Source: a virus. From it: a stretch of DNA of 64,000 nucleotides. The stretch lies in IMG/VR virus record IMGVR_UViG_3300026531_000002, positions 5,351-69,350 of that record; one strand, given 5' to 3'. The notes below the pieces were generated by a model. It did not search any database and was not told where the DNA came from. It saw only the letters and a program-made list of their open reading frames with translations. The translations under genes and the position numbers were made by a program. This document shows, piece after piece, positions 2,951 through 47,110 of this stretch. Numbering within the stretch: the first letter of the stretch is position 1; each line of letters opens with the position of its first letter.

Positions 2951-3493
2951 ATGTTTGTAGATTTATTAGAAAGATTTAAATTAATACTAGATTATGAAGC
3001 TTCAACAGTTGCTGAAGAAGAGTTTTTAATAGAGTGCTTAAAAAGTGCTGTGGTGTATGTTGAGAATTATACTCATATCATTTTCGAGTATAAGGAAATA
3101 GAAGAACTTGTATTAAGCCTAGACAGTAAACACTATTTCACTAAACATGGGTATATTCAAGAAGTTAAATACATCTTAGATGAGGATTTACAAGTAATTG
3201 ATAGTAGTGCTATCAAAGTAAAGCCTGAAAGCAACAAAGTGTACCATAGAGGCTTACTAAGACCTTTTTACACAATAAAATATAGTGTAGGTTGGAGAAG
3301 CATTGATTCAGTTCCTGAAAAGTACTTAACAAGTGTTTTACAATTAGCTAAAAAAGTGTATTTTGATTTAAAAAAAGATACGGATATTTATACAGCTGAA
3401 AGTATAACTGTAAGAGAATATACCAGAACAACTGATAAATTGCCTAATATTGTTAGAGATAATTTAGATAGAATGAGATTAGTATATTTATAG
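2951..3493 (+). CDS. Head-tail connector / head completion protein
   Basis: SAVVYVENYT...IKYSVGW...VPEKYLTSVLQLA is the HK97 gp6 / T5 p144-like pattern. Confidence 0.75.
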   Translation: MFVDLLERFKLILDYEASTVAEEEFLIECLKSAVVYVENYTHIIFEYKEIEELVLSLDSKHYFTKHGYIQEVKYILDEDLQVIDSSAIKVKPESNKVYHRGLLRPFYTIKYSVGWRSIDSVPEKYLTSVLQLAKKVYFDLKKDTDIYTAESITVREYTRTTDKLPNIVRDNLDRMRLVYL

Positions 3494-3500
3494 GTAGCTG

Positions 3501-3545
3501 ACAGGAGGCCAAAATGGTGTTTAATCATTGGGCTTCCTGTTTATT
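3501..3545. terminator. Bidirectional intrinsic terminator
   Basis: acaggaggcc...ggcttcctgt stem followed by T-run, between convergent genes. Confidence 0.6.
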
Positions 3546-3548
3546 TAT

Positions 3549-3785
3549 TTATAATTTTCTTGAACTAAACAATTCAGGAGCTAATTCAATAGCCTCTAAA
3601 ACATCTTTATCTCTATAAGTCAGCCCCATAGAAATCTTACCAGCTAGAACACCTTTAGTAAAGTTGTCTAAAGTATGACTAGCAAAAAAATACTTGCCCT
3701 CTTCAACAAACTTCTTTACCTCGCTTAAAGGTAATCTAGTCAATTTCATAACTAAGTTGATTTTTTTAATTTCATTCTTATTCAT
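3549..3785 (-). CDS. Hypothetical protein
   Basis: ORF with AAGGAG RBS. Confidence 0.6.
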   Translation of the reverse strand: MNKNEIKKINLVMKLTRLPLSEVKKFVEEGKYFFASHTLDNFTKGVLAGKISMGLTYRDKDVLEAIELAPELFSSRKL

Positions 3786-3799
3786 TGTTTTCTCCTTTC

Positions 3800-4015
3800 T
3801 TAGATTTCTTCTGTTTCAGATATTTGAAAGCCTCTTTTAAAATCTGGATTGCTAGTCTGTCTTCTAAAGATAGTAGAATCTTTATTCCACTCACCCTCAA
3901 ATCCTTTTTTATTTACAAAATCAATTAGTTTTTGCTTGTCTTTAGCCACTGCAACAACCTCTTCATCAGTATAGCCTTGTACTATATCCCAATCAATTAA
4001 TACATAAGTTTTCAT
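3800..4015 (-). CDS. Hypothetical small phage protein
   Basis: ORF with AAGGAG RBS; MKTYVL...VVAVAKDK start is common in small phage early proteins. Confidence 0.6.
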   Translation of the reverse strand: MKTYVLIDWDIVQGYTDEEVVAVAKDKQKLIDFVNKKGFEGEWNKDSTIFRRQTSNPDFKRGFQISETEEI

Positions 4016-4043
4016 CTTTATCTCCTTTTTATTTATATGTTTA

Positions 4044-4172
4044 GCAACTTTATAGTCACATTAAAAGTTTGACACACTCCCCATTGTTAAAACAAGGGGA
4101 TTCTGGTTTTAAAGCAACAGAAGCCGTTAAGGTCTTATTCTGTCTATACCAAGAGTTGATGCCCCAACTCTT
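4044..4172 (-). ncRNA. Putative TnpB omega-RNA (reRNA)-like scaffold plus flanking guide
   Basis: TGnTATAAT at 4186-4178 sits directly upstream of the gagttggggcatcaactc hairpin, the right-end hairpin and TCAA; guide would be ACTTTTAATGTGACTATAAAG. Confidence 0.5.
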
Positions 4173-4276
4173 TTAATATTATATCATACTTTTTCTTAAT
4201 TTTAATTTAAAAAGAATTGTTTAAGTAAAGCCTTATATCCCCATTGTTGAAACAAGGGGTTTTACGGCTAGTTTGG
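4069..4276 (-). mobile_element. Non-autonomous IS200/IS605-family miniature (PATE-like), 208 bp
   Basis: Minus strand: TTAT then left end ccaaactagccgtaaaaccccttgtttcaacaatggggatataaggc; right end agaatccccttgttttaacaatggggagtgtgTCAA with a near-identical hairpin; internal NIKRVGASTLG tnpB C-terminal codons; uninterrupted paralogous site at 8187-8265. Confidence 0.8.
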
Positions 4277-4380
4277 ATAATAAACCTTAAAGAAAAATAA
4301 AACCTATAACTTTTACAAAAAATATTTAATAGAAATTGAATAGGAGCCGAAACAGCCCCTTTAAAGTAGATTAGTAGGAA

Positions 4381-6636
4381 TTAAGAAGAACAACTTTCAC
4401 ATTCATCTTTTTCAGCACCTTTTAAGCCATTGAAGTAGTATAATGATTTAACTCCGTTTTTATAGCAGTCTAACCATAGCTTTGTCTCCTCCTTAATAGA
4501 GTATGACTTATCTTTATCATAAGCTAATTCATAAGTGTTAACTGACTGACCCTGCTCCATATATCTTTGTCTTATCCCTGCCAACTCAATCAAATGAGAA
4601 TTATCAAAAGTGTGTGCTAACTCATATCTGTTTCCAAGCTGTCTAAGGTCTGGAGCAGGGTTTGGAGTAGCGCCTAAATCTGTTGTTTTGATACTGATAA
4701 AGTCCTTAATAGGTTCTATACCCTCTGTTACATTAGCAATTAGAGAACTAGTAGCAGTAGGAGCGATTGCAAAATGAGTACTGAAACGAACTCCCCTTTC
4801 AAGCACTAAATCAGCAACTCTTTCATCTCTTACAAAACTTCTAACCCAATTTTCATCTTTCCACTTTGTGTTATTAATTAAAGGAAAAGCTCCTCTTTCT
4901 TTAGCAAGCATTGTAGAAGCCTCTATAACTGTTAATTGAAACTCTCTCATAGCCTTATCCATCTCTACTTTAGCCTCTTTGGAAGAGAATTTAATATTAA
5001 TTCTAGCAAAGTACTTAGCAAGGTTGTTGATACCAATTCCAATAGGTCTGTACATTTTATTAGTAAATTCTCCAGACTTATTAGGATAGAATGCTGTATC
5101 AATTAAATTATCTTGTGCTTTTAATAAGTTATAAACCATATTTAATCTATCAAACTTACTAAGTAACATAAAATGGTTGATATTAATACTTGCTAAATTA
5201 CATAACCAAGTATCTCCAACAGCTCTTGTTTTAGTTTCTGTGTATTCTTGTTCATTAAAACTATAATTAAGTTCTGTATCAACGCCTGCTAAGGGCTGTG
5301 CTGGTAACATAATTTCTTGACACAAATTACTTGTAAAAATAGTATCCTTAAAAGGCGTTGTTTCATTGTTTACAACTTCCTTAAACAGAATATAAATATT
5401 ACCTGTTTTCTTTCTTTGTTTAATAATTAAAGAAATTAAATCTCTAGCACTAACAAACTTCTTTTTAATATGAGGATTTTTCTCATATGTTTCATACATC
5501 TTATTAAATTCTTCAATAGTTTTACAATAATTTAGCCCAACCTCTTTAGGGTCAAATAAAGCAACCTGCTCATCTTTGATAGCTCTTTCAATCAACAAAT
5601 AATTAATAACAACACTTAGTTTTAAACCTCTAGCTCTTTTTTCAGGAACTCCCCCCTTATCATTAAGCATAACAAAATCCTCTATATCAAGACCCCACCA
5701 ATCATAAGCAGCAATTCCAGAACCCTTGCGAAGACCGCGCTGATTAAAAGCATTAATAGTAGCCTCATAAAGTTTTGAAAAAGGAACTATACCACTACTT
5801 TTTCCGCCTGTTAAGTCAATAGAACTACCCATACTTCTTAAAAAGCCTATATACCAACTGATACCACCTCCGTAACGGCTGTATAAGCCTGCATCATTAG
5901 TGTTTGCTAAAATAGACTCACTATCATCAGCAATATTCATAACAACACAACTAGCAACTTGTTGGGTTTTTGTTAGGGAACTAATCCATTTTGGTGTAGC
6001 TTCTGTGTAAGCAACCTCACCAGTATCCGTATTACCTGTTAAGTCGTTGTATCTTTGCTTAATAAGTGCTAAAGTATCTGCACAATATTCTTTAGGTTTA
6101 TTACTAAGTTCTTCTACAAATGGAGCTAAAGCAACTCTCATATAACCTAATTGAGGAAGCTCACCTTTGAATAGGTATTTATCAAACATATTAATAGCAC
6201 CCATAATAGTAAGCCTAAAATCTAATTCTGGTTTAATCATATTATCCAGCTCCTGCCAAACATCTGGTCGGATACCGTCAAGCTTTTCTAAATCAATCCC
6301 TACTATATTACCTGACATAATTGTTTCTGAAAAAATAGGGTATTCTCCTGCGTGTTTAATGCCATATAACTCTTTTTGTTTTTTTTGCACATAAAACCTA
6401 CCAGCTATATTGGCAAACTCTGGATACATTCTACTAATTAGATTCTTAGCTGTATCAATATATAAATCTAATAAGTCATCTGAACTTATTTCATTTCTGT
6501 TATTTATTACTTCTTCTATTTCACTTCTAAAAATAGGAATTAAACTCTCATAACCTCTAAAAGTAAATTTAATTTGATTGTCAAGTTTTCTATAATCAAA
6601 AGCCTCTATCTCACCATTTCTTTTTTTTACTTGCAT
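4381..6636 (-). CDS. nrdA: Ribonucleotide reductase class I alpha subunit
   Basis: N-terminal ATP cone (VKKRNG), ASC, SNLCQEI, APTATSS, KSLYY, C-terminal CESC. Confidence 0.95.
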   Translation of the reverse strand: MQVKKRNGEIEAFDYRKLDNQIKFTFRGYESLIPIFRSEIEEVINNRNEISSDDLLDLYIDTAKNLISRMYPEFANIAGRFYVQKKQKELYGIKHAGEYPIFSETIMSGNIVGIDLEKLDGIRPDVWQELDNMIKPELDFRLTIMGAINMFDKYLFKGELPQLGYMRVALAPFVEELSNKPKEYCADTLALIKQRYNDLTGNTDTGEVAYTEATPKWISSLTKTQQVASCVVMNIADDSESILANTNDAGLYSRYGGGISWYIGFLRSMGSSIDLTGGKSSGIVPFSKLYEATINAFNQRGLRKGSGIAAYDWWGLDIEDFVMLNDKGGVPEKRARGLKLSVVINYLLIERAIKDEQVALFDPKEVGLNYCKTIEEFNKMYETYEKNPHIKKKFVSARDLISLIIKQRKKTGNIYILFKEVVNNETTPFKDTIFTSNLCQEIMLPAQPLAGVDTELNYSFNEQEYTETKTRAVGDTWLCNLASININHFMLLSKFDRLNMVYNLLKAQDNLIDTAFYPNKSGEFTNKMYRPIGIGINNLAKYFARINIKFSSKEAKVEMDKAMREFQLTVIEASTMLAKERGAFPLINNTKWKDENWVRSFVRDERVADLVLERGVRFSTHFAIAPTATSSLIANVTEGIEPIKDFISIKTTDLGATPNPAPDLRQLGNRYELAHTFDNSHLIELAGIRQRYMEQGQSVNTYELAYDKDKSYSIKEETKLWLDCYKNGVKSLYYFNGLKGAEKDECESCSS

Positions 6637-6691
6637 ATAATTCTCCTTTTTGTTTTAATGTTATAATTGTAGTATATAGTAGCTGAAAAAG

Positions 6692-6715
6692 AGCTGAAAC
6701 GGAACTGTTTCAGCC
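6692..6715 (-). terminator. Hairpin / terminator
   Basis: gctgaaac...gtttcagc stem. Confidence 0.45.
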
Positions 6716-6716
6716 T

Positions 6717-7052
6717 TTAGTAGAATAAACCTTCGTCGCGGTAGATTATACTTGATTTACCTTTTAAATCTGTATAAGGTGGGATTATCTCAATCCATTG
6801 TCCATTGTCTAAATAGAATTTTTTTCTATCAACTTTAATAATTGAGTAACCCATTTCTCTAATAAGAAATCTTAATAAATACTCCAAATAAGGAACTGAA
6901 ACAGAATTTAAAGCAACAACTGTTACATTGTTTCCAAAGTCTGTTTCAGTTAAAGCTTGTATCAGCATATTAGTAGTTTTTCCACTACCTCTACCTGTTA
7001 CTACTCTATTAAATGTATTATGAACTCTATCAATATCTAATTTTTTAGCCAT
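6717..7052 (-). CDS. Small P-loop-containing protein
   Basis: Walker A-like GRGSGKTT in a 111-aa ORF. Confidence 0.55.
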   Translation of the reverse strand: MAKKLDIDRVHNTFNRVVTGRGSGKTTNMLIQALTETDFGNNVTVVALNSVSVPYLEYLLRFLIREMGYSIIKVDRKKFYLDNGQWIEIIPPYTDLKGKSSIIYRDEGLFY

Positions 7053-7054
7053 AT

Positions 7055-7504
7055 TTAGTCCTTGTTAGTAGAGCCTAAACCACCATTTCTTTGCTTGTTT
7101 TCTCTATATTTATTGCCTAATAGAGTGTTACCTTGATGTTCCATAATAAGAATTTGTGCAACCCTATCTCCTTTATTGATAACAAAAGGCTCACTATTCA
7201 AATTGTGTACAATCAATTTTACTTCATCTGTATAGTCAGCATCTAAAATACCTGTACCAGCAAGTAACCCTTTAGCTCTTAAAGAGCTTCTTAGTTCTAA
7301 CTGAATAAAAATATCCTGCATAACAATCTTTTCAAGACCGTCAAGGTCTTCCCAATCATAACTAAAACCTAATGGAATAATAGCTGTTGAATTAGCTGGT
7401 AAGGTTACAGTAACCCTGCTTACACAATCATATCCTGCACTATATTCAGTCTTAGCTTTTGGTATACAATCAATTTCTTTGTCTAAGTTTTTAAAGTTAA
7501 TCAT
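7055..7504 (-). CDS. dut: Trimeric dUTPase
   Basis: SAGYD, RSSL, GILDADY, GDRVAQ, RNGGLGST motifs. Confidence 0.93.
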   Translation of the reverse strand: MINFKNLDKEIDCIPKAKTEYSAGYDCVSRVTVTLPANSTAIIPLGFSYDWEDLDGLEKIVMQDIFIQLELRSSLRAKGLLAGTGILDADYTDEVKLIVHNLNSEPFVINKGDRVAQILIMEHQGNTLLGNKYRENKQRNGGLGSTNKD

Positions 7505-7845
7505 TAATCCCCCTTTAATACTTTAGCAGTTGCCGCTGCCATTAAAATATCAATAGTTTGTTTATTACTCTTGTCAATATAACACATAAGTTTTTTATAA
7601 TATTCATATGGAGTATCCTTATCAAGGCTGTCAAGGCTCTCTAATTTACCACTCATTAATAATTCTGGCACAATATATACAGTAAGAGCATCTAACCCTA
7701 ACAATAAAAGACCTAAAAGCTCTTCATCAGTTGGCTCTCTATACCCATTTGTTTGTGCTTCTACAACATAATCAGCAGCTTTACTTATAATACTCTCTTT
7801 ATCCTCTAATTTTTTTGGTACATTTAATTCATCTATTGTTCTCAT
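7504..7845 (-). CDS. Hypothetical protein
   Basis: ORF translationally coupled to dut. Confidence 0.6.
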   Translation of the reverse strand: MRTIDELNVPKKLEDKESIISKAADYVVEAQTNGYREPTDEELLGLLLLGLDALTVYIVPELLMSGKLESLDSLDKDTPYEYYKKLMCYIDKSNKQTIDILMAAATAKVLKGD

Positions 7846-7858
7846 TTTGTATCCTTTC

Positions 7859-8161
7859 TTATGCTTCTAAAAATTCTATTTGGTCTAAAGTTACAATGCT
7901 TTCTGCACCATCATACTCTTCAATATAAAACTTAGTCCCCTTTGGAACAAACTCAAAATCAAGGTCTTCAAAATATATAGCATCCTTGCCTAGCCCGTAT
8001 CTCTCCTCTAAGATAGAGAAAAATCTTTTTTCATCATTATTTAATACAGCCTCTACTAAATCCTTATCCATTGGGTTAATATTATTCCAAGTTGAAAACC
8101 CAGCACCAAAATTAGGTGAAATAATAACACCAACCATATTGTCTTTGATAAATTTTTCCAT
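7859..8161 (-). CDS. Conserved hypothetical phage protein
   Basis: SPNFGAGFSTWN...FYIEEYDGAESI is a recurrent small phage protein pattern. Confidence 0.65.
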   Translation of the reverse strand: MEKFIKDNMVGVIISPNFGAGFSTWNNINPMDKDLVEAVLNNDEKRFFSILEERYGLGKDAIYFEDLDFEFVPKGTKFYIEEYDGAESIVTLDQIEFLEA

Positions 8162-8186
8162 TTCATTTCCTTTTAAAATTAATTTT

Positions 8187-8265
8187 GCGACTTCATAGTC
8201 ACATTAGAAGTATAACAAACAAAACCTTAAATAAAAATAAAACTTATAGATTTTACAAAAGAAAT
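8187..8265 (-). promoter_or_regulatory. sigma70-type promoter and leader; intact paralogue of the IS-interrupted promoter at 4044-4325
   Basis: Minus strand: ttaagg...tgtTATACTtctaatgtgactatgaagtcgc. Confidence 0.65.
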
Positions 8266-8297
8266 TTGAAAGAGTTGAGGCGGAAGCCTCATAAGTA

Positions 8298-10982
8298 CTA
8301 AGAAAGTGTTGCCCAAGTGTCCCCATATTCTGGCTCTGCTTCCATAGGCAAGAAAACAGAAGCATTTTTATCAAAATAATCATCAAACTTTTCCATACTG
8401 TAACTTATTAAATTTCCTTGTAATTCAATATCACTATTACCTGAAACAACCCTTTTTAGGTATTCTCTATAATCTGGTGAAATCTCTTCTTTTAAATAAG
8501 CATAAACAGCATCATGTATAATATTAACTAAAACTGTGTCATATTTAAATGCAGGTGTGTTATAGTATAACCATTCCGTAGCATTAATAGTAGCTAATCC
8601 AGAACTTTGAATACTAAAATTCACAGCCACCCTTTCATCTTTACTGCTAATCCAGCTTAATTTACTCTTAAGATATGGCAACAGCACATAATGACTGCTG
8701 AAACGGCTTAAATAATAGTTAGCCTTTAAAGGTCTGTCACAGCCTGTTATATAAAAAATAGGGTGTGGTAACTCTAATTCTTGACTCTTAGCTTTTTCAA
8801 TAGTTTGCATATTATAATTATAAGTAGCTTTATAGGCTTCCCAATAGTTGTCATAAATAAATCTTTCATTCTTCTTAAAAGATTGTCTTTGTTTAAGATA
8901 GTTTAAAGAAAATGTATATCCCTTACTGTCTTGTCTTAATTTAGGGTACTTTTTCTTAATACTATTAATATCATCTTTAATAGCCTTAATATACTCAACA
9001 CTACCTACTTCCAAACCTTTTGTTTTATTCTCAATAGCTTCTTTCACATCTGGCATTTTGTCAGACCAATAAGAATAAGTATTGTAACAGTGACTATCAA
9101 TACCATATTTAGTAATAGCATAAAGAGCCTCATCTTGTGCTTCATTAATCCCTACACGGCTCTCTAATGCAGAATAGTCAGCCCCTACCATCATATAACC
9201 ATCAGGAGCTTTAAAAACATCTTTGATAGTCTTTCCATACTTGCTTCCAGATGGGATTGTTAATAAAGACACTACTCCAGAACTACTCAAACGGCGTGAT
9301 AAAGTTCCTGTTTGGTTGAATTGATTAAACACTTTATAGGTTCCTGCTCCTGTATGCACACAACCATCATTTAAGTTTGTAATATAAGTATTAAGAGCTT
9401 TTTTAAGGTCTTGAATATCTTTAATTTGTTGTATCAACTCTTTATCCTCTTCAGATACATTAGGATTTTCTAACCAAAATGCCAAAGTATCCTTATCAGT
9501 CTTTCTATCTTTATCTAATAAAGGTAAACCCATAACCTCATAATAAAGAGTTTGTTTATGATTAGGGCTAGCTATGTTGAATTTAATATGTTTAAAGTCA
9601 GCTATTGTTTTTTGTTTTTTGTGTTGGCGATTATATTTTTCCATAGCAGAAAACCTTAGCAGGATTTCAGCTTCAGCTATTTTTGGGTGTCCTATAACTT
9701 CCTTTTTCTTTTCTTCATCATAATACCCGATGAGAGCTTTCTCATCATCTTCAAGCATTTTTGGTAACTCTACTACAAGTCTTTCTAACTTTGCTTTATC
9801 CACTTCCATACCATTCAAAGCCATATAAGTTAGCACTTTAGATTGTCTAATCATACTTAAATAGGCTTTTCTTAGTTCGTTTTTTAAAGGGTGTTGTTTA
9901 AGAATATCTAATAACCAGTAATAAATTCTTTTAGTTGCTATTACATCTATATTATTATAAGTTGCAACCTCTCTAATATCAGCATTAATTAAGTCTGATT
10001 GGTCAATGTTCTCATCATACTCTCCAAACCACTTATAAGAAAGAGCTTTCAAAGAATTTGATGTTCTTTCTGTACTATTAAATACTAAGTAAGCTAAAAA
10101 TAAAGTATCCTCATAGTTTTGTTTTTGTGTTATTTCATAATACTTTGTGTGGTCTTCTGCATTATAAAAATTGCCTTTTAAATATAGATTATGTATTAAA
10201 AAAGGATTATCAAAGTTAGCCCAATTATGCCCTACTATTTTCTTACTTTCTTGATACTTTAAAAGAAACCTACTAACAACTTCTGAAATAGCTTCATCTC
10301 TCAAATCAAAACAATAAGCTGTTTCATCTTTTGTCCCAAAACTAATTGTAAGAAGCCCATCTTTATACCAATAAAGCCCTGTTGTTTCAATATCAACAAA
10401 CAAAATAGGCTCTTTAAATAACTTAGTCAGCACTTTTAAAGCTTCTGATTTAGTATTTATAAAGTTATCCTGTTCTGATTTTATCTTTTCAAAACCTTTT
10501 ACAAACCCTGTTTCAATTTGTCTATACACTTCTGTTTTATTCCCACCATTAAAACCTTTAAGGTTCTGTAAAAGCTGTTGTAACATTTTTAATTTATATG
10601 GTGTAGTGGTAATCTGATATGTATCAAAAATAGGCACAATATGTTTAGGACTATTTGTTATTTTTTTTACTAACTTACTTTGAGGCAGTAGCATACCAAC
10701 TGCTAAATCAGGCTTAGAAAGTGTTGTAAGAAACTTTAGCAGTGCCTTATCAGATGCTAAAATATACTCAATATCATATAAATCTTCTAGTTTAGCAATC
10801 TCTTTTAAAGCTCTCTCAACCTCGTCTTTTTTTATTGTGTTTTTTATAGGGATATCTACCCCTATAACACAAGACTCCTCTAAAATATCTTTGTATATAA
10901 CTAAATCAGAAGTTTTAAATTTATTCTCATTTACTAAAATTACATACTTAACAGCATCTGAATGATTAAATAATACTTCCAT
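8298..10982 (-). CDS. polA: Family A DNA polymerase with 3'-5' exonuclease
   Basis: DIETTG, GHN..FD, YNNID exonuclease motifs; TGTLSRRLSS; motif A ADYSALESR; motif B RQDSKGYTF; motif C IHDA. Confidence 0.93.
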   Translation of the reverse strand: MEVLFNHSDAVKYVILVNENKFKTSDLVIYKDILEESCVIGVDIPIKNTIKKDEVERALKEIAKLEDLYDIEYILASDKALLKFLTTLSKPDLAVGMLLPQSKLVKKITNSPKHIVPIFDTYQITTTPYKLKMLQQLLQNLKGFNGGNKTEVYRQIETGFVKGFEKIKSEQDNFINTKSEALKVLTKLFKEPILFVDIETTGLYWYKDGLLTISFGTKDETAYCFDLRDEAISEVVSRFLLKYQESKKIVGHNWANFDNPFLIHNLYLKGNFYNAEDHTKYYEITQKQNYEDTLFLAYLVFNSTERTSNSLKALSYKWFGEYDENIDQSDLINADIREVATYNNIDVIATKRIYYWLLDILKQHPLKNELRKAYLSMIRQSKVLTYMALNGMEVDKAKLERLVVELPKMLEDDEKALIGYYDEEKKKEVIGHPKIAEAEILLRFSAMEKYNRQHKKQKTIADFKHIKFNIASPNHKQTLYYEVMGLPLLDKDRKTDKDTLAFWLENPNVSEEDKELIQQIKDIQDLKKALNTYITNLNDGCVHTGAGTYKVFNQFNQTGTLSRRLSSSGVVSLLTIPSGSKYGKTIKDVFKAPDGYMMVGADYSALESRVGINEAQDEALYAITKYGIDSHCYNTYSYWSDKMPDVKEAIENKTKGLEVGSVEYIKAIKDDINSIKKKYPKLRQDSKGYTFSLNYLKQRQSFKKNERFIYDNYWEAYKATYNYNMQTIEKAKSQELELPHPIFYITGCDRPLKANYYLSRFSSHYVLLPYLKSKLSWISSKDERVAVNFSIQSSGLATINATEWLYYNTPAFKYDTVLVNIIHDAVYAYLKEEISPDYREYLKRVVSGNSDIELQGNLISYSMEKFDDYFDKNASVFLPMEAEPEYGDTWATLS

Positions 10983-11051
10983 AACTATCCTTTTTGTTAA
11001 AATAATAGAAAGGATAACAAAAAAAAACTTAAAAAGAGATTAAAAGAAAAG

Positions 11052-16025: not shown

Positions 16026-16144
16026 TGTTTCTCCTTTTTTTTTATTTTGGCAACTTTGAAGTTACTCTGTAAGTATAGTATATTAAACCTTAAATAACCC
16101 TGAAATTAAAAATAAAACCGAAACAACACTTAAAAAGGTTGTAA

Positions 16145-23986: not shown

Positions 23987-24063
23987 TTCCTTTACCTCTC
24001 TTAAACTTTAAACTAATTATAACAAAATAAAACTTAAAAGTAAATTAAGTCTAATAAGAATAC

Positions 24064-31585: not shown

Positions 31586-31740
31586 TTTTATTTTTATTTA
31601 AGCTTTATTTTGTTAAACTTCTACTATATACATTAACAAAAGGAGAAACAAAATGAGTAATAAATTAAAAGGTTTGTTTGGGAACATGGTTATATTGGTG
31701 AACCAGTTATTAGATGGTTATAAAAGTAAAAGGGATTAAA

Positions 31741-40080: not shown

Positions 40081-40155
40081 TCCACTTTTTCTATTTCAGT
40101 TTATTTTAAGTTTTATTTTGTTATACTTTCTTATCTAAATTTTAAGGAGATAAAA

Positions 40156-42885: not shown

Positions 42886-42949
42886 CTTTATTTTATTTTA
42901 AGCTTTATTTTGTTATACTTCTAAAAATAACATATAAAAAGGAGAAAAA

Positions 42950-47022: not shown

Positions 47023-47110
47023 TTAGTATCCTTTTAAGTGCTGTTTCGATTTATTTTATTTTAAGGTTTATTGTGTTATACTTTCAACATATACAACAAA
47101 GGAGTTCAGA

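What the first reader, a model, noticed from the sequence alone, without database searches (positions are those of the whole stretch)
4044..4280. Promoter-equipped orphan TnpB omega-RNA cassette whose guide matches another promoter in the same phage
Seen: a 208-bp element (4069-4276, minus) with two near-identical terminal hairpins, a TCAA right end and the last tnpB-like codons (NIKRVGASTLG), but no tnpA or tnpB. It sits inside a -10 box (TTAT|ACT). An intact paralogous promoter survives at 8187-8265. Inside the element, TTAAG...TGATATAAT lies just upstream of the scaffold. The would-be guide ACTTTTAATGTGACTATAAAGTTGC matches 8211-8187 (ACTTCTAATGTGACTATGAAGTCGC) at 16 of the first 17 and 22 of 25 nt, directly after TTAT. 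Established: IS200/IS605 elements insert 3' of a short motif that doubles as the TnpB TAM, and the guide comes from DNA flanking the right end. Inference: this mini-gene could load a host or trans TnpB/TldR and target the phage's own 8.2 kb promoter or uninterrupted alleles in competing phages. It also replaces the promoter it destroyed. The match may be only a by-product of landing in a duplicated promoter.
Basis: partly seen in the sequence, partly recalled or inferred. Interest (0 to 1): 0.78.

Follow-up and report, generated by a model that had tools for sequence, protein, structure and literature searches.

The report
Gene-less TnpB guide-RNA mini-transposon in phage
A 208-base, protein-less jumping element that still carries the guide-RNA part of a TnpB nuclease has landed inside a promoter of a hydrothermal-vent phage; this kind of element is already known, and its match to a second phage promoter is best explained by the two promoters being copies of each other.

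Summary
Window 4069-4276 (minus) is a 208-bp IS608-type (IS200/IS605) element with no gene. It sits between TTAT and ACT of a phage promoter that has 8 intact copies in the window.

- **Guide-RNA scaffold:** its right 104 nt match a covariance model built from 33 relatives, the phage copy left out (90.5 bits, E about 1e-18, full length). That alignment shows strong covariation: 92.9% of cells paired, against at most 52% with slid partners.
- **Promoter:** a perfect extended -10 (TGATATAAT) lies 7 nt before the scaffold. Helicobacter mini-elements carry the same feature at the same place.
- **Target rule:** the left-end guide AAAA fits the target TTAT. 136 of 144 AAAA-type left ends elsewhere also sit at TTAT.
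- **Second copy:** a 48-bp one-hairpin derivative lies outside the window, also after TTAT.
- **No nuclease or transposase:** the 69-kb record (about 56% complete) holds no TnpB or TnpA.
- **The 8.2-kb match:** real (16 of 17, 22 of 25), but it follows from the two promoters being paralogues. Nothing tested supports self-targeting.

Standalone omega-RNAs and omega-RNA-bearing PATEs are in print. This scan has met phage-borne examples before on other DNA. It is a new member of a known kind.

The parts
4069..4276 (-). 208-bp non-autonomous IS608-type element (PATE / standalone omega-RNA element)
   Evidence: Boundaries come from comparison with the intact paralogous promoter. Both ends are homologous to IS608-type ends.
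4277..4280 (-). Target tetranucleotide TTAT (TnpA cleavage site CL, and the expected TAM)
   Evidence: 136 of 144 AAAA-type left ends elsewhere sit at TTAT within 1 nt.
4239..4263 (-). Left-end guide AAAA (4263-4260) and left subterminal hairpin (4259-4239)
   Evidence: For the role of the four bases 5' of the hairpin foot in IS608.
4178..4205 (-). Internal promoter: TTAAAA (4205-4200), 16-nt spacer, TG (4186-4185), TATAAT (4183-4178). Start expected near 4172-4170.
   Evidence: 10 of 12, TG present. The same feature is in Helicobacter mini-elements. Expression is not shown.
4127..4180 (-). Remnant of the last tnpB codons (NIKRVGASTLGIDRIRP, stop)
   Evidence: 80.4% identity over 51 nt to the 3' end of ISHp608 orfB in a Helicobacter phage.
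4069..4172 (-). Omega-RNA-type scaffold: helices P1, P2', P2, a shortened P3 and the right-end hairpin. It contains GAAT (4103-4100), the hairpin (4099-4079) and TCAA (4072-4069).
   Evidence: Model R1 built from 33 relatives without this sequence: 90.5 bits, E 9.8e-19, model positions 1-107. Covariation. The single-sequence fold gives the same helices.
4044..4068 (-). Flank that would be read as the guide (ACTTTTAATGTGACTATAAAGTTGC). It is also the leader of the interrupted promoter's transcript.
   Evidence: Established rule that the guide is the DNA just outside the right end.
4281..4320 (-). Upstream half of the interrupted phage promoter (TTGTAAAA...TTTAAGGTTTA)
   Evidence: Read by eye against 8216-8265. 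Promoter family.
8187..8215 (-). Intact paralogous site: TTAT (8215-8212) plus a 25-nt near-match to the guide flank (8211-8187)
   Evidence: It is the only other TTAT-flanked site in the window with up to 3 mismatches to TTAT plus 16 nt.
3800..4015 (-). First gene downstream of the interrupted promoter (71 aa, no family), followed by 3549-3785 (78 aa)
   Evidence: Probably now transcribed from the element's promoter (inference).

Best explanation
This is a non-autonomous IS608-type (IS200/IS605 family) mini-transposon, of the kind called a PATE or standalone omega-RNA element.

How it got there (inferred): a Y1 TnpA supplied in trans, by the host or another element, pasted its single-stranded circle 3' of TTAT. 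That TTAT happens to be the first part of the -10 box (TTAT|ACT) of a repeated phage promoter.

What it keeps (shown):
- Everything needed in cis to move: both hairpins, the left guide AAAA that fits TTAT, GAAT, and TCAA 10 nt after the right hairpin.
- A structurally complete 104-nt TnpB guide-RNA scaffold, preceded by its own extended -10 promoter.

How it most likely works (inferred): the promoter makes an RNA that starts at the scaffold and runs out through the right end into the flank and the two small downstream genes. This would replace the promoter it broke. If the infected cell holds a compatible TnpB that reads TTAT, that RNA would guide it to TTAT+ACTTTTAATGTGACTA, the uninterrupted site. 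That would favour keeping and spreading the insertion, which is the ordinary homing role of TnpB.

The near-match to the 8.2-kb promoter is a by-product of promoter paralogy, not an evolved target.
For: Identity:
- The ends and the tnpB remnant are homologous to IS608-type elements.
- The scaffold scores 90.5 bits, E 9.8e-19, full length, against a model built from 33 relatives without it.
- In the 34-sequence alignment 92.9% of cells are paired against 77.8% in shuffles (0 of 500 reach it) and 34.7-52.1% with slid partners. 18 of 28 pairs change on both sides.

Target rule:
- AAAA-type left ends sit at TTAT in 136 of 144 distinct cases.
- 16 of the 17 AAAG-type left ends with a readable flank sit at TTAC, by my count of the 20 rows.
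- The mechanism of this recognition in IS608 is described in the passages read.

Promoter:
- It is the best site of the region.
- Ten Helicobacter mini-element junctions of at least two types carry a TG-extended -10 (9 TATAAT, 1 TACAAT) 8-10 nt before the scaffold. Only 1 of 18 relatives with at least 290 in-frame codons upstream has a 5-of-6 hexamer there.

Size and precedent:
- In ISDra2 a scaffold of about 116 nt suffices, and an inner stem can be deleted.
- Standalone omega-RNAs work in trans with compatible effectors, as stated. PATEs often encode omega-RNAs.

Other support:
- A second, decayed copy also lies after TTAT.
- Family members occur in the same vent metagenomes. Summed contig depth over 4019-4235 in run X3 is 8301, against about 20 on the flanks.
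Against: - No TnpB or TnpA in the 69-kb record. The record is only about 56% complete and the host is unknown.
- No RNA run holds the locus, so transcription is not shown.
- Helix P3 has 2 pairs here against 5 or more in most of the 33 relatives. This could mean decay.
- No relative closer than about 78% was found for the scaffold, and no exact match to the right end. The cognate full-length element is therefore unknown.
- Within this scaffold family the left ends that I could find are of the TTAC type, except two compact mini-elements at TTAT. No TnpB of this family is shown to read TTAT.
- The single-sequence fold is not unusual (z -1.52).
- Rfam has no matching family.
- No true empty site in a sister phage could be read, because contigs break in the repeated promoter.
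Confidence: 0.5

Rival explanations
1. Inert relic. The element is a decaying mini-transposon that no longer makes a usable guide RNA. Its only present effect is on transcription: it breaks one phage promoter and supplies another for the two small downstream genes.
For: - P3 is shortened to 2 pairs.
- A 48-bp one-hairpin derivative in the same record shows that copies do decay by deletion between the hairpins.
- No TnpB or TnpA in the record.
- The -10 box straddles the deletion junction and could be a chance product of AT-rich DNA. Promoter-like sites are not enriched in the region: 4 found against 2.9 expected.
Against: - All other helices and both ends are intact, and the model match is full length.
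- The extended -10 is perfect and lies at the same distance from the scaffold as in Helicobacter mini-elements.
- The left-end guide still fits its target.
Confidence: 0.33
2. The cassette is a working mini-gene whose guide is aimed at the phage's own 8.2-kb promoter, for regulation through a dead TnpB/TldR or for cleavage.
For: - The site 8215-8196 has TTAT and one difference in 16 nt. By my reading that difference would be an rU-dG wobble at position 5.
- It is the only such site in the window.
- It lies at the start of the operon that holds the dUTPase and ribonucleotide reductase genes.
Against: - The match is what promoter paralogy predicts. The similarity between the two sites runs on upstream of TTAT as well.
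- Differences 5 and 18 keep a leader hairpin (my reading), so the sequence is shaped by the promoter family, not by the guide.
- No TldR or TnpB was found.
- In ISDra2 double mismatches at positions 1-12 abolish cleavage. Single mismatches were not covered in the passages read.
- A nuclease aimed at its own genome would be costly.
Confidence: 0.05
3. Weapon against competitors. The cassette's main role is to cut uninterrupted alleles in co-infecting sister phages, as exclusion or a gene drive between phages, using the host's TnpB.
For: - It uses the same mechanics as ordinary TnpB homing.
- Related phages about 90% identical occur in two other vent runs.
- Earlier notes of this scan describe similar phage cassettes whose guides match sister phages (unchecked here).
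Against: - No sister phage with the empty site could be read. The contigs of X2 and X3 break near 4290 in the repeated promoter.
- No TnpB is known for the host.
Confidence: 0.12

Closest known systems
IS608 / ISHp608 of Helicobacter pylori (IS200/IS605 family, IS605 group)
   Same: - Subterminal hairpins at both ends.
- Right end TCAA 10 nt after the hairpin foot.
- Four-base guides 5' of each hairpin.
- Insertion 3' of a tetranucleotide without duplication.
- The tnpB 3' end is 80% identical over 51 nt.
   Different: - No tnpA or tnpB.
- Target TTAT with left guide AAAA, instead of TTAC with AAAG.
- The distance from the cleavage site to the hairpin is 17 nt here, against 19 nt stated for IS608.
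- The right end reads GTGTGTCAA instead of GTATGTCAA.
Standalone omega-RNAs and omega-RNA-bearing PATEs of OMEGA/TnpB systems (Altae-Tran 2021 as summarised in PMC10691335; Meers 2023, PMC10055086; PATE concept from Dyall-Smith 2011, PMC3119063, search listing only)
   Same: A protein-less, evidently mobilised element that keeps transposon ends and the guide-RNA scaffold. It needs TnpA and TnpB in trans.
   Different: - It sits in a phage genome from a hydrothermal vent, inside a promoter's -10 box.
- It carries its own extended -10 promoter at the deletion junction.
- No effector-bearing copy is known in the same genome, whereas the published cases were found beside effector loci.
Mini-elements of about 180 bp in Helicobacter suis and relatives, and of about 230 bp in Campylobacter fetus plasmid pCfviMP1 (found here; I did not search the literature for them specifically)
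   Same: The same layout: left hairpin, short spacer with a -10 box, then the P1-to-right-end scaffold.
   Different: - 71-84% identity in the scaffold, and 69% for the C. fetus plasmid element.
- They use TTAC with AAAG.
- They are multi-copy in bacterial genomes that also hold tnpB-length frames. 11 of the 45 right-part hits have an open frame of at least 300 aa ending in the module.
TldR (nuclease-dead TnpB repressors)
   Same: Only the idea that a TnpB-type guide can aim at a promoter.
   Different: No TldR or any TnpB-like gene was found. No conserved guide-target pairing is shown.

Membership tests
IS200/IS605-family non-autonomous element (PATE) | Imperfect-palindrome hairpins near both ends | tested here: met
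   21-nt hairpins at 4239-4259 and 4079-4099, differing at 1 base. They are homologous to left and right ends of relatives.
IS200/IS605-family non-autonomous element (PATE) | Insertion 3' of a short target without target duplication, and an element end at TCAA-like CR a fixed distance from the right hairpin | tested here: met
   TTAT|element|ACT against the intact TTATACT of the paralogue. TCAA ends 10 nt after the hairpin foot, as stated for IS608. A true empty site in a sister phage was not obtained.
IS200/IS605-family non-autonomous element (PATE) | Left-end guide bases fit the target tetranucleotide | tested here: met
   AAAA with TTAT here, and in 136 of 144 distinct AAAA-type left ends. 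AAAG with TTAC in 16 of 17 (my count).
IS200/IS605-family non-autonomous element (PATE) | No transposase or other protein gene inside | tested here: met
   All three forward frames have stops. Only an 18-codon tnpB tail is left.
TnpB omega-RNA | Derived from the tnpB 3' end plus the right end, with the guide taken from the flank | tested here: met
   Homology to the ISHp608 orfB 3' end. 11 of the 45 right-part hits in relatives have an open frame of at least 300 aa ending in the module.
TnpB omega-RNA | Conserved secondary structure supported by covariation | tested here: met
   P3 is shortened in the phage copy.
TnpB omega-RNA | Expressed as an RNA and bound by a TnpB | not testable with these tools
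   No RNA run was listed for the locus. No protein partner is known.
TnpB omega-RNA | A compatible TnpB in the same genome or cell | tested here: not met
   0 matches for PF07282, PF01385 and NF040570 in the 69,350-bp record.
Rfam RNA families | Match at the gathering score | tested here: not met
   7 matches at E up to 10, all far below gathering. The best over the element is PyrR, 20 bits against 54.
TldR-guided repression | A nuclease-dead TnpB homologue with a guide conserved against a promoter | tested here: not met
   No TnpB-like gene in the record. The target similarity is explained by paralogy.

The most novel reading that the evidence does not exclude
The cassette is a live RNA-guided module of a vent phage. 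It is transcribed from its own promoter and loaded by the host's TnpB. It cuts uninterrupted alleles in co-infecting sister phages, acting as a gene drive between phages. Through its one-wobble match after TTAT at 8.2 kb it also throttles or nicks the phage's own nucleotide-metabolism operon. That would be a transposon guide co-opted as a phage regulator.
Probability: 0.07. Interest if true: 0.75.

Novelty: new member of a known kind. Interest (0 to 1): 0.33.

Why it matters
It adds a well-anatomised phage example to the known class of effector-less TnpB guide-RNA elements.

- The ends, the target rule, the scaffold and the promoter can all be read from the sequence.
- The TTAT inside the -10 box of a repeated phage promoter makes every such promoter a landing pad.
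- Two results found along the way may help people who annotate these elements:
  - The left-end guide predicts the target: AAAA with TTAT, AAAG with TTAC.
  - Mini-elements in Helicobacter and in this phage carry an extended -10 box just before the scaffold.
- If a host TnpB does use this RNA, the element would behave as a homing drive in a phage population. That is testable with simple plasmid assays.

Tried and rejected
Searches and tests that led nowhere:
- Rfam scan of 3500-4900: nothing near a gathering score.
- Megablast of 3000-9000 against phage records: no match.
- Exact right-end 27-mer: 0 in viral contigs and 0 in genome contigs. A 20-mer of the right end: 0 in metagenome contigs.
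- Ribonucleotide reductase as a handle for sister phages in viral contigs: 3 pattern matches, none confirmed.
- MAFFT of the two promoter regions misplaced the insertion. I aligned them by eye.
- The 171 AAAA-type left ends do not share the right half. Only 3 hits of 31 nt to the right hairpin. They gave the target rule but not the parent element.
- Element against 401 genomes of the class of the genome that holds L055 (record title Sulfurimonas crateris MAG): 11 with a match at E up to 1e-6, best 75-80% identity. No host was identified.
- My first regex for right ends found none, and one row (L088) was a false mini-element.
- The single-sequence fold z-score of -1.52 is not informative.

Sequencing runs:
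- No RNA holder was listed.
- Three DNA runs of three studies were laid. X1 may be the source of this DNA and is not independent.
- X2 and X3 hold phages about 90% alike, but their contigs stop near 4290 in the repeated promoter. Presence or absence of the insertion in sister phages could not be told.
- No joint 4068/4277 was listed.
- One X3 contig holds a 92%-alike copy of the whole element at its end, with a different right flank. I could not place it.
- Loose ends at 4181 in X2 and X3 read on, by my eye, as an open tnpB-like frame. This is a hint that gene-bearing relatives live in those samples, nothing more.

Other limits:
- Structure prediction, complex prediction and the large protein searches were not used, because there is no protein to test.
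- Supplements of the papers were closed and may hold lists of standalone omega-RNAs or TAMs that bear on novelty.
- I did not search the literature specifically for the Helicobacter suis mini-elements.
- That ISDge10 TnpB uses a TTAT TAM, and that GAAT is the IS608 right guide, are recalled and come from no call.

Full report
**Context.** The window is bases 5351-69350 of a 69,350-bp linear virus record, estimated 56% complete, with 30.7% G+C. The only run that holds the stretch in full is a hydrothermal-vent metagenome. It may be the source of this DNA. Around the finding lie minus-strand replication and nucleotide genes:
- a family A DNA polymerase (8298-10982);
- small genes and a dUTPase (7055-7504);
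- ribonucleotide reductase large subunit (4381-6636; phrog_84 3e-169, PF02867 1.1e-104);
- after the finding, two small genes without family (3800-4015 and 3549-3785).

**Observation.** On the minus strand the sequence reads ...TTTAAGGTTTATTAT|CCAAACTAGCCGTAAAACCCC...GGGGAGTGTGTCAA|ACTTTTAATGTGACTATAAAGTTGC. The intact site at 8.2 kb reads ...TTTAAGGTTTTGTTTGTTAT|ACTTCTAATGTGACTATGAAGTCGC.
- The 208 bp at 4069-4276 are therefore an insertion between TTAT and ACT.
- The two 21-nt hairpins differ at one base, the right end is TCAA, and frame 0 gives YNIKRVGASTLGIDRIRP-stop.
- The flank differs from the 8.2-kb site at positions 5, 18 and 22.
- The 22-nt flank motif occurs twice against 0.03 expected.
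- The promoter motif TTTAAGnTTTATTnTGTTATACTT has 8 copies with up to 3 mismatches against 0.02 expected (also families D3, D4 and D6). So TTAT|ACT is the -10 box of a repeated phage promoter.

**What the element is.** Distant BLAST gave only partial hits:
- bases 97-147 are 80.4% identical to the 3' end of the ISHp608 orfB (TnpB) gene in a Helicobacter phage;
- the right end matches Clostridioides phages at 94% over 36 nt;
- bases 1-147 match a spot in Campylobacter fetus plasmid pCfviMP1 that occurs at 11 places in that plasmid.

Read out, the C. fetus spot is itself a gene-less element of about 230 bp with the same layout. An 18-nt word from the first helix (GTTGGGGCATCAACTCTT) found 103 stretches in the species-representative genomes. 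In 45 BLAST hits the phage's right 112 nt align at 71-84%. In 11 of these an open frame of at least 300 aa ends inside the module, so they look like full tnpB genes. Many others, above all in Helicobacter suis, have only short frames.

**Structure test.** From 78 modules I kept 33 that are under about 93% alike and aligned them with the phage copy.
- RNAalifold gave 22 pairs, 14 of them with compensatory changes.
- For a five-helix structure that I drew from the alignment, 92.9% of 940 cells pair, against 77.8% in shuffles (0 of 500 reach it) and 34.7-52.1% when partners are slid. 18 of 28 pairs change on both sides, in 154 cells.
- P1 never varies, partly because the search word lies in it.
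- A covariance model built from the 33 relatives alone hits window 4172-4069 with 90.5 bits, E 9.8e-19, over model positions 1-107. It finds nothing else in the window above 16.4 bits.
The model is mine, because Rfam has none that fits.
- The one departure is helix P3: 2 pairs here, 5 or more in most relatives.
- For scale, in ISDra2 the RNA 5' of position -117 is dispensable, an inner stem can be replaced by a tetraloop, and double mismatches at guide positions 1-12 abolish cleavage (passages read).

**Target rule.** In IS608 the cleavage sites are read by four bases 5' of each hairpin foot. The left site is TTAC, the left guide is AAAG, and TCAA lies 10 nt after the right hairpin (passages read).
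- The phage element has AAAA and TTAT, and TCAA at 10 nt.
- 16 of the 17 AAAG-type left ends with a readable flank sit at TTAC, by my count of the 20 rows.
- Of 144 distinct left end plus flank sequences, 136 have TTAT within one base of the predicted cut, 4 have TTAC and 4 something else.
- TTAT is therefore the proper target, and the expected TAM, of this left end.
- These 171 stretches do not share the phage element's right half. Within the scaffold family I found only TTAC-type left ends, plus two very compact mini-elements at TTAT.

**Promoter.**
- TTAAAA-16-TATAAT with TG at 4205-4178 is the best promoter-like site between 3700 and 4500 (10 of 12). The number of such sites in the region is not above chance, 4 against 2.9.
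- Its -10 box ends 7 nt before the GAG that opens helix P1, and it straddles the junction between non-tnpB and tnpB-derived sequence.
- In one search, ten distinct Helicobacter mini-element junctions of at least two types have a TG-extended -10 (9 TATAAT, 1 TACAAT) 8-10 nt before the same point.
- Among the 18 relatives with at least 290 in-frame codons upstream, one has a 5-of-6 hexamer there.
- This recurrence makes a working promoter likelier than chance, but no RNA evidence exists.
- Nothing terminator-like follows the right end on the minus strand, so such a transcript would run into 3800-4015.
- The ribonucleotide reductase gene ends with a terminator-like hairpin at 4360-4342.

**Partners.** No Y1 transposase and no TnpB family matches anywhere in the record. 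In 401 genomes of the class of the Sulfurimonas genome that holds L055, 11 have a match. None is closer than 75-80%. The host therefore stays unknown.

**Other copies and relatives.**
- A 48-bp element at G000:C1:2573-2620 begins like the left end, has one hairpin and ends like the right end, again after TTAT. It is best read as a deletion between the two hairpins.
- Laid contigs show phages about 90% alike in two other vent runs.
- A 92%-alike copy of the element lies at the end of a 5-kb contig in X3, with another right flank.
- Summed depth is 8301 over 4019-4235 in X3, against about 20 nearby. Relatives of the element are thus abundant there.
- The contigs break in the repeated promoter, so no empty site could be read.

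**The 8.2-kb match.** A search for TTAT plus 16 nt with up to 3 mismatches finds three places:
- the element's own flank, with TCAA in place of TTAT;
- 8196-8215, with one mismatch;
- one site with TGAT and three mismatches.

The target exists, but the similarity of the two loci extends upstream of TTAT through the whole promoter. Differences 5 and 18 keep a hairpin: ACTTC...GAAGT against ACTTT...AAAGT (my reading). The match is inherited from promoter paralogy. Whether a TnpB would accept the single rU-dG at position 5 is unknown.

**Comparison with what is known.**
- The PNAS 2023 survey states that standalone omega-RNAs, mobilised yet without effector or transposase, occur beside effector loci and work in trans, with unknown biological role (passage read).
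- Meers et al. state that PATEs often encode omega-RNAs that need TnpB in trans (passage read).
- IS608 copies in Helicobacter phages are on record.
- Earlier notes of this scan describe several phage-borne omega-RNA mini-elements on other DNA (unchecked by me).
- The finding is thus a new member of a known kind. Its local features are the landing in a -10 box, a promoter of its own, a TTAT-type left end joined to an IS608-type scaffold, and a vent phage as carrier.

**Verdict.**
- Observation confirmed; interpretation partly supported.
- Identity as an IS608-type PATE with an omega-RNA scaffold is about 0.95 sure.
- The element is mechanically fit to serve as a trans-loaded homing guide, and it replaces the promoter it broke.
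- Odds for the whole statement given under Best explanation, which includes transcription from the internal promoter and the by-product reading of the 8.2-kb match, are about 0.5.
- Actual loading by a host TnpB during infection, taken alone, I put at about one in three.
- The inert-relic reading is about 0.33. A role against sister phages is about 0.12, and self-targeting of the 8.2-kb promoter about 0.05.

Noticed in passing
G000:C1:2573-2620 (minus), outside the window; L002 1492-1539: A 48-bp derivative of the same element. It has the left-end start, one hairpin and the right-end tail, again right after TTAT. It is probably a deletion between the two hairpins.
   Followed up: partly
window 8208-8231, 11010-11033, 16071-16094, 24015-24038 (minus); 31597-31620, 40105-40128, 42897-42920, 47060-47083 (plus): A phage promoter family TTTAAGnTTTATTnTGTTATACTT, 8 copies against 0.02 expected. 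Each holds TTAT in its -10 box, so each is a possible landing site for TTAT-type IS200/IS605 elements.
   Followed up: partly
window 4047-4068 and 8190-8211 (minus); a looser third copy near 16042-16070: The leader just after these promoters can form a hairpin, with a compensatory change between copies (ACTTC...GAAGT against ACTTT...AAAGT). It may be a shared regulatory stem-loop of the early or middle operons.
   Followed up: no
window 5317/5330 and 4753, in contigs of run X3: The sister phage in X3 has 978 extra letters in the ribonucleotide reductase gene at 5317/5330. Two of its contigs stop at 4753, in a conserved part of the same gene, and go on with sequence like the element's left end. 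These may be intron, intein or IS insertions. I could not read the contigs.
   Followed up: no
L006, L022, L023, L033, L038, L060, L064, L090, L104, L291 (Helicobacter suis and relatives): Many mini-elements of about 180 bp: left hairpin, a TG-extended -10 box, then the P1-to-right-end scaffold. All are inserted after TTAC.
   Followed up: partly
L109-L279: Left ends with guide AAAA sit at TTAT in 136 of 144 distinct cases, while AAAG-type ends sit at TTAC. The left-end guide could be used to predict the target and TAM when annotating these elements.
   Followed up: yes
L027 and L056: Very compact mini-elements in which the left hairpin lies about 19 nt before helix P1, flanked by TTAT(C). Their guide bases differ (AATA, ATTA).
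   Followed up: no
window 4151-4172 (plus): Read on the plus strand, helix P1 followed by a T-run scores as an intrinsic terminator. The element could stop antisense transcription.
   Followed up: no
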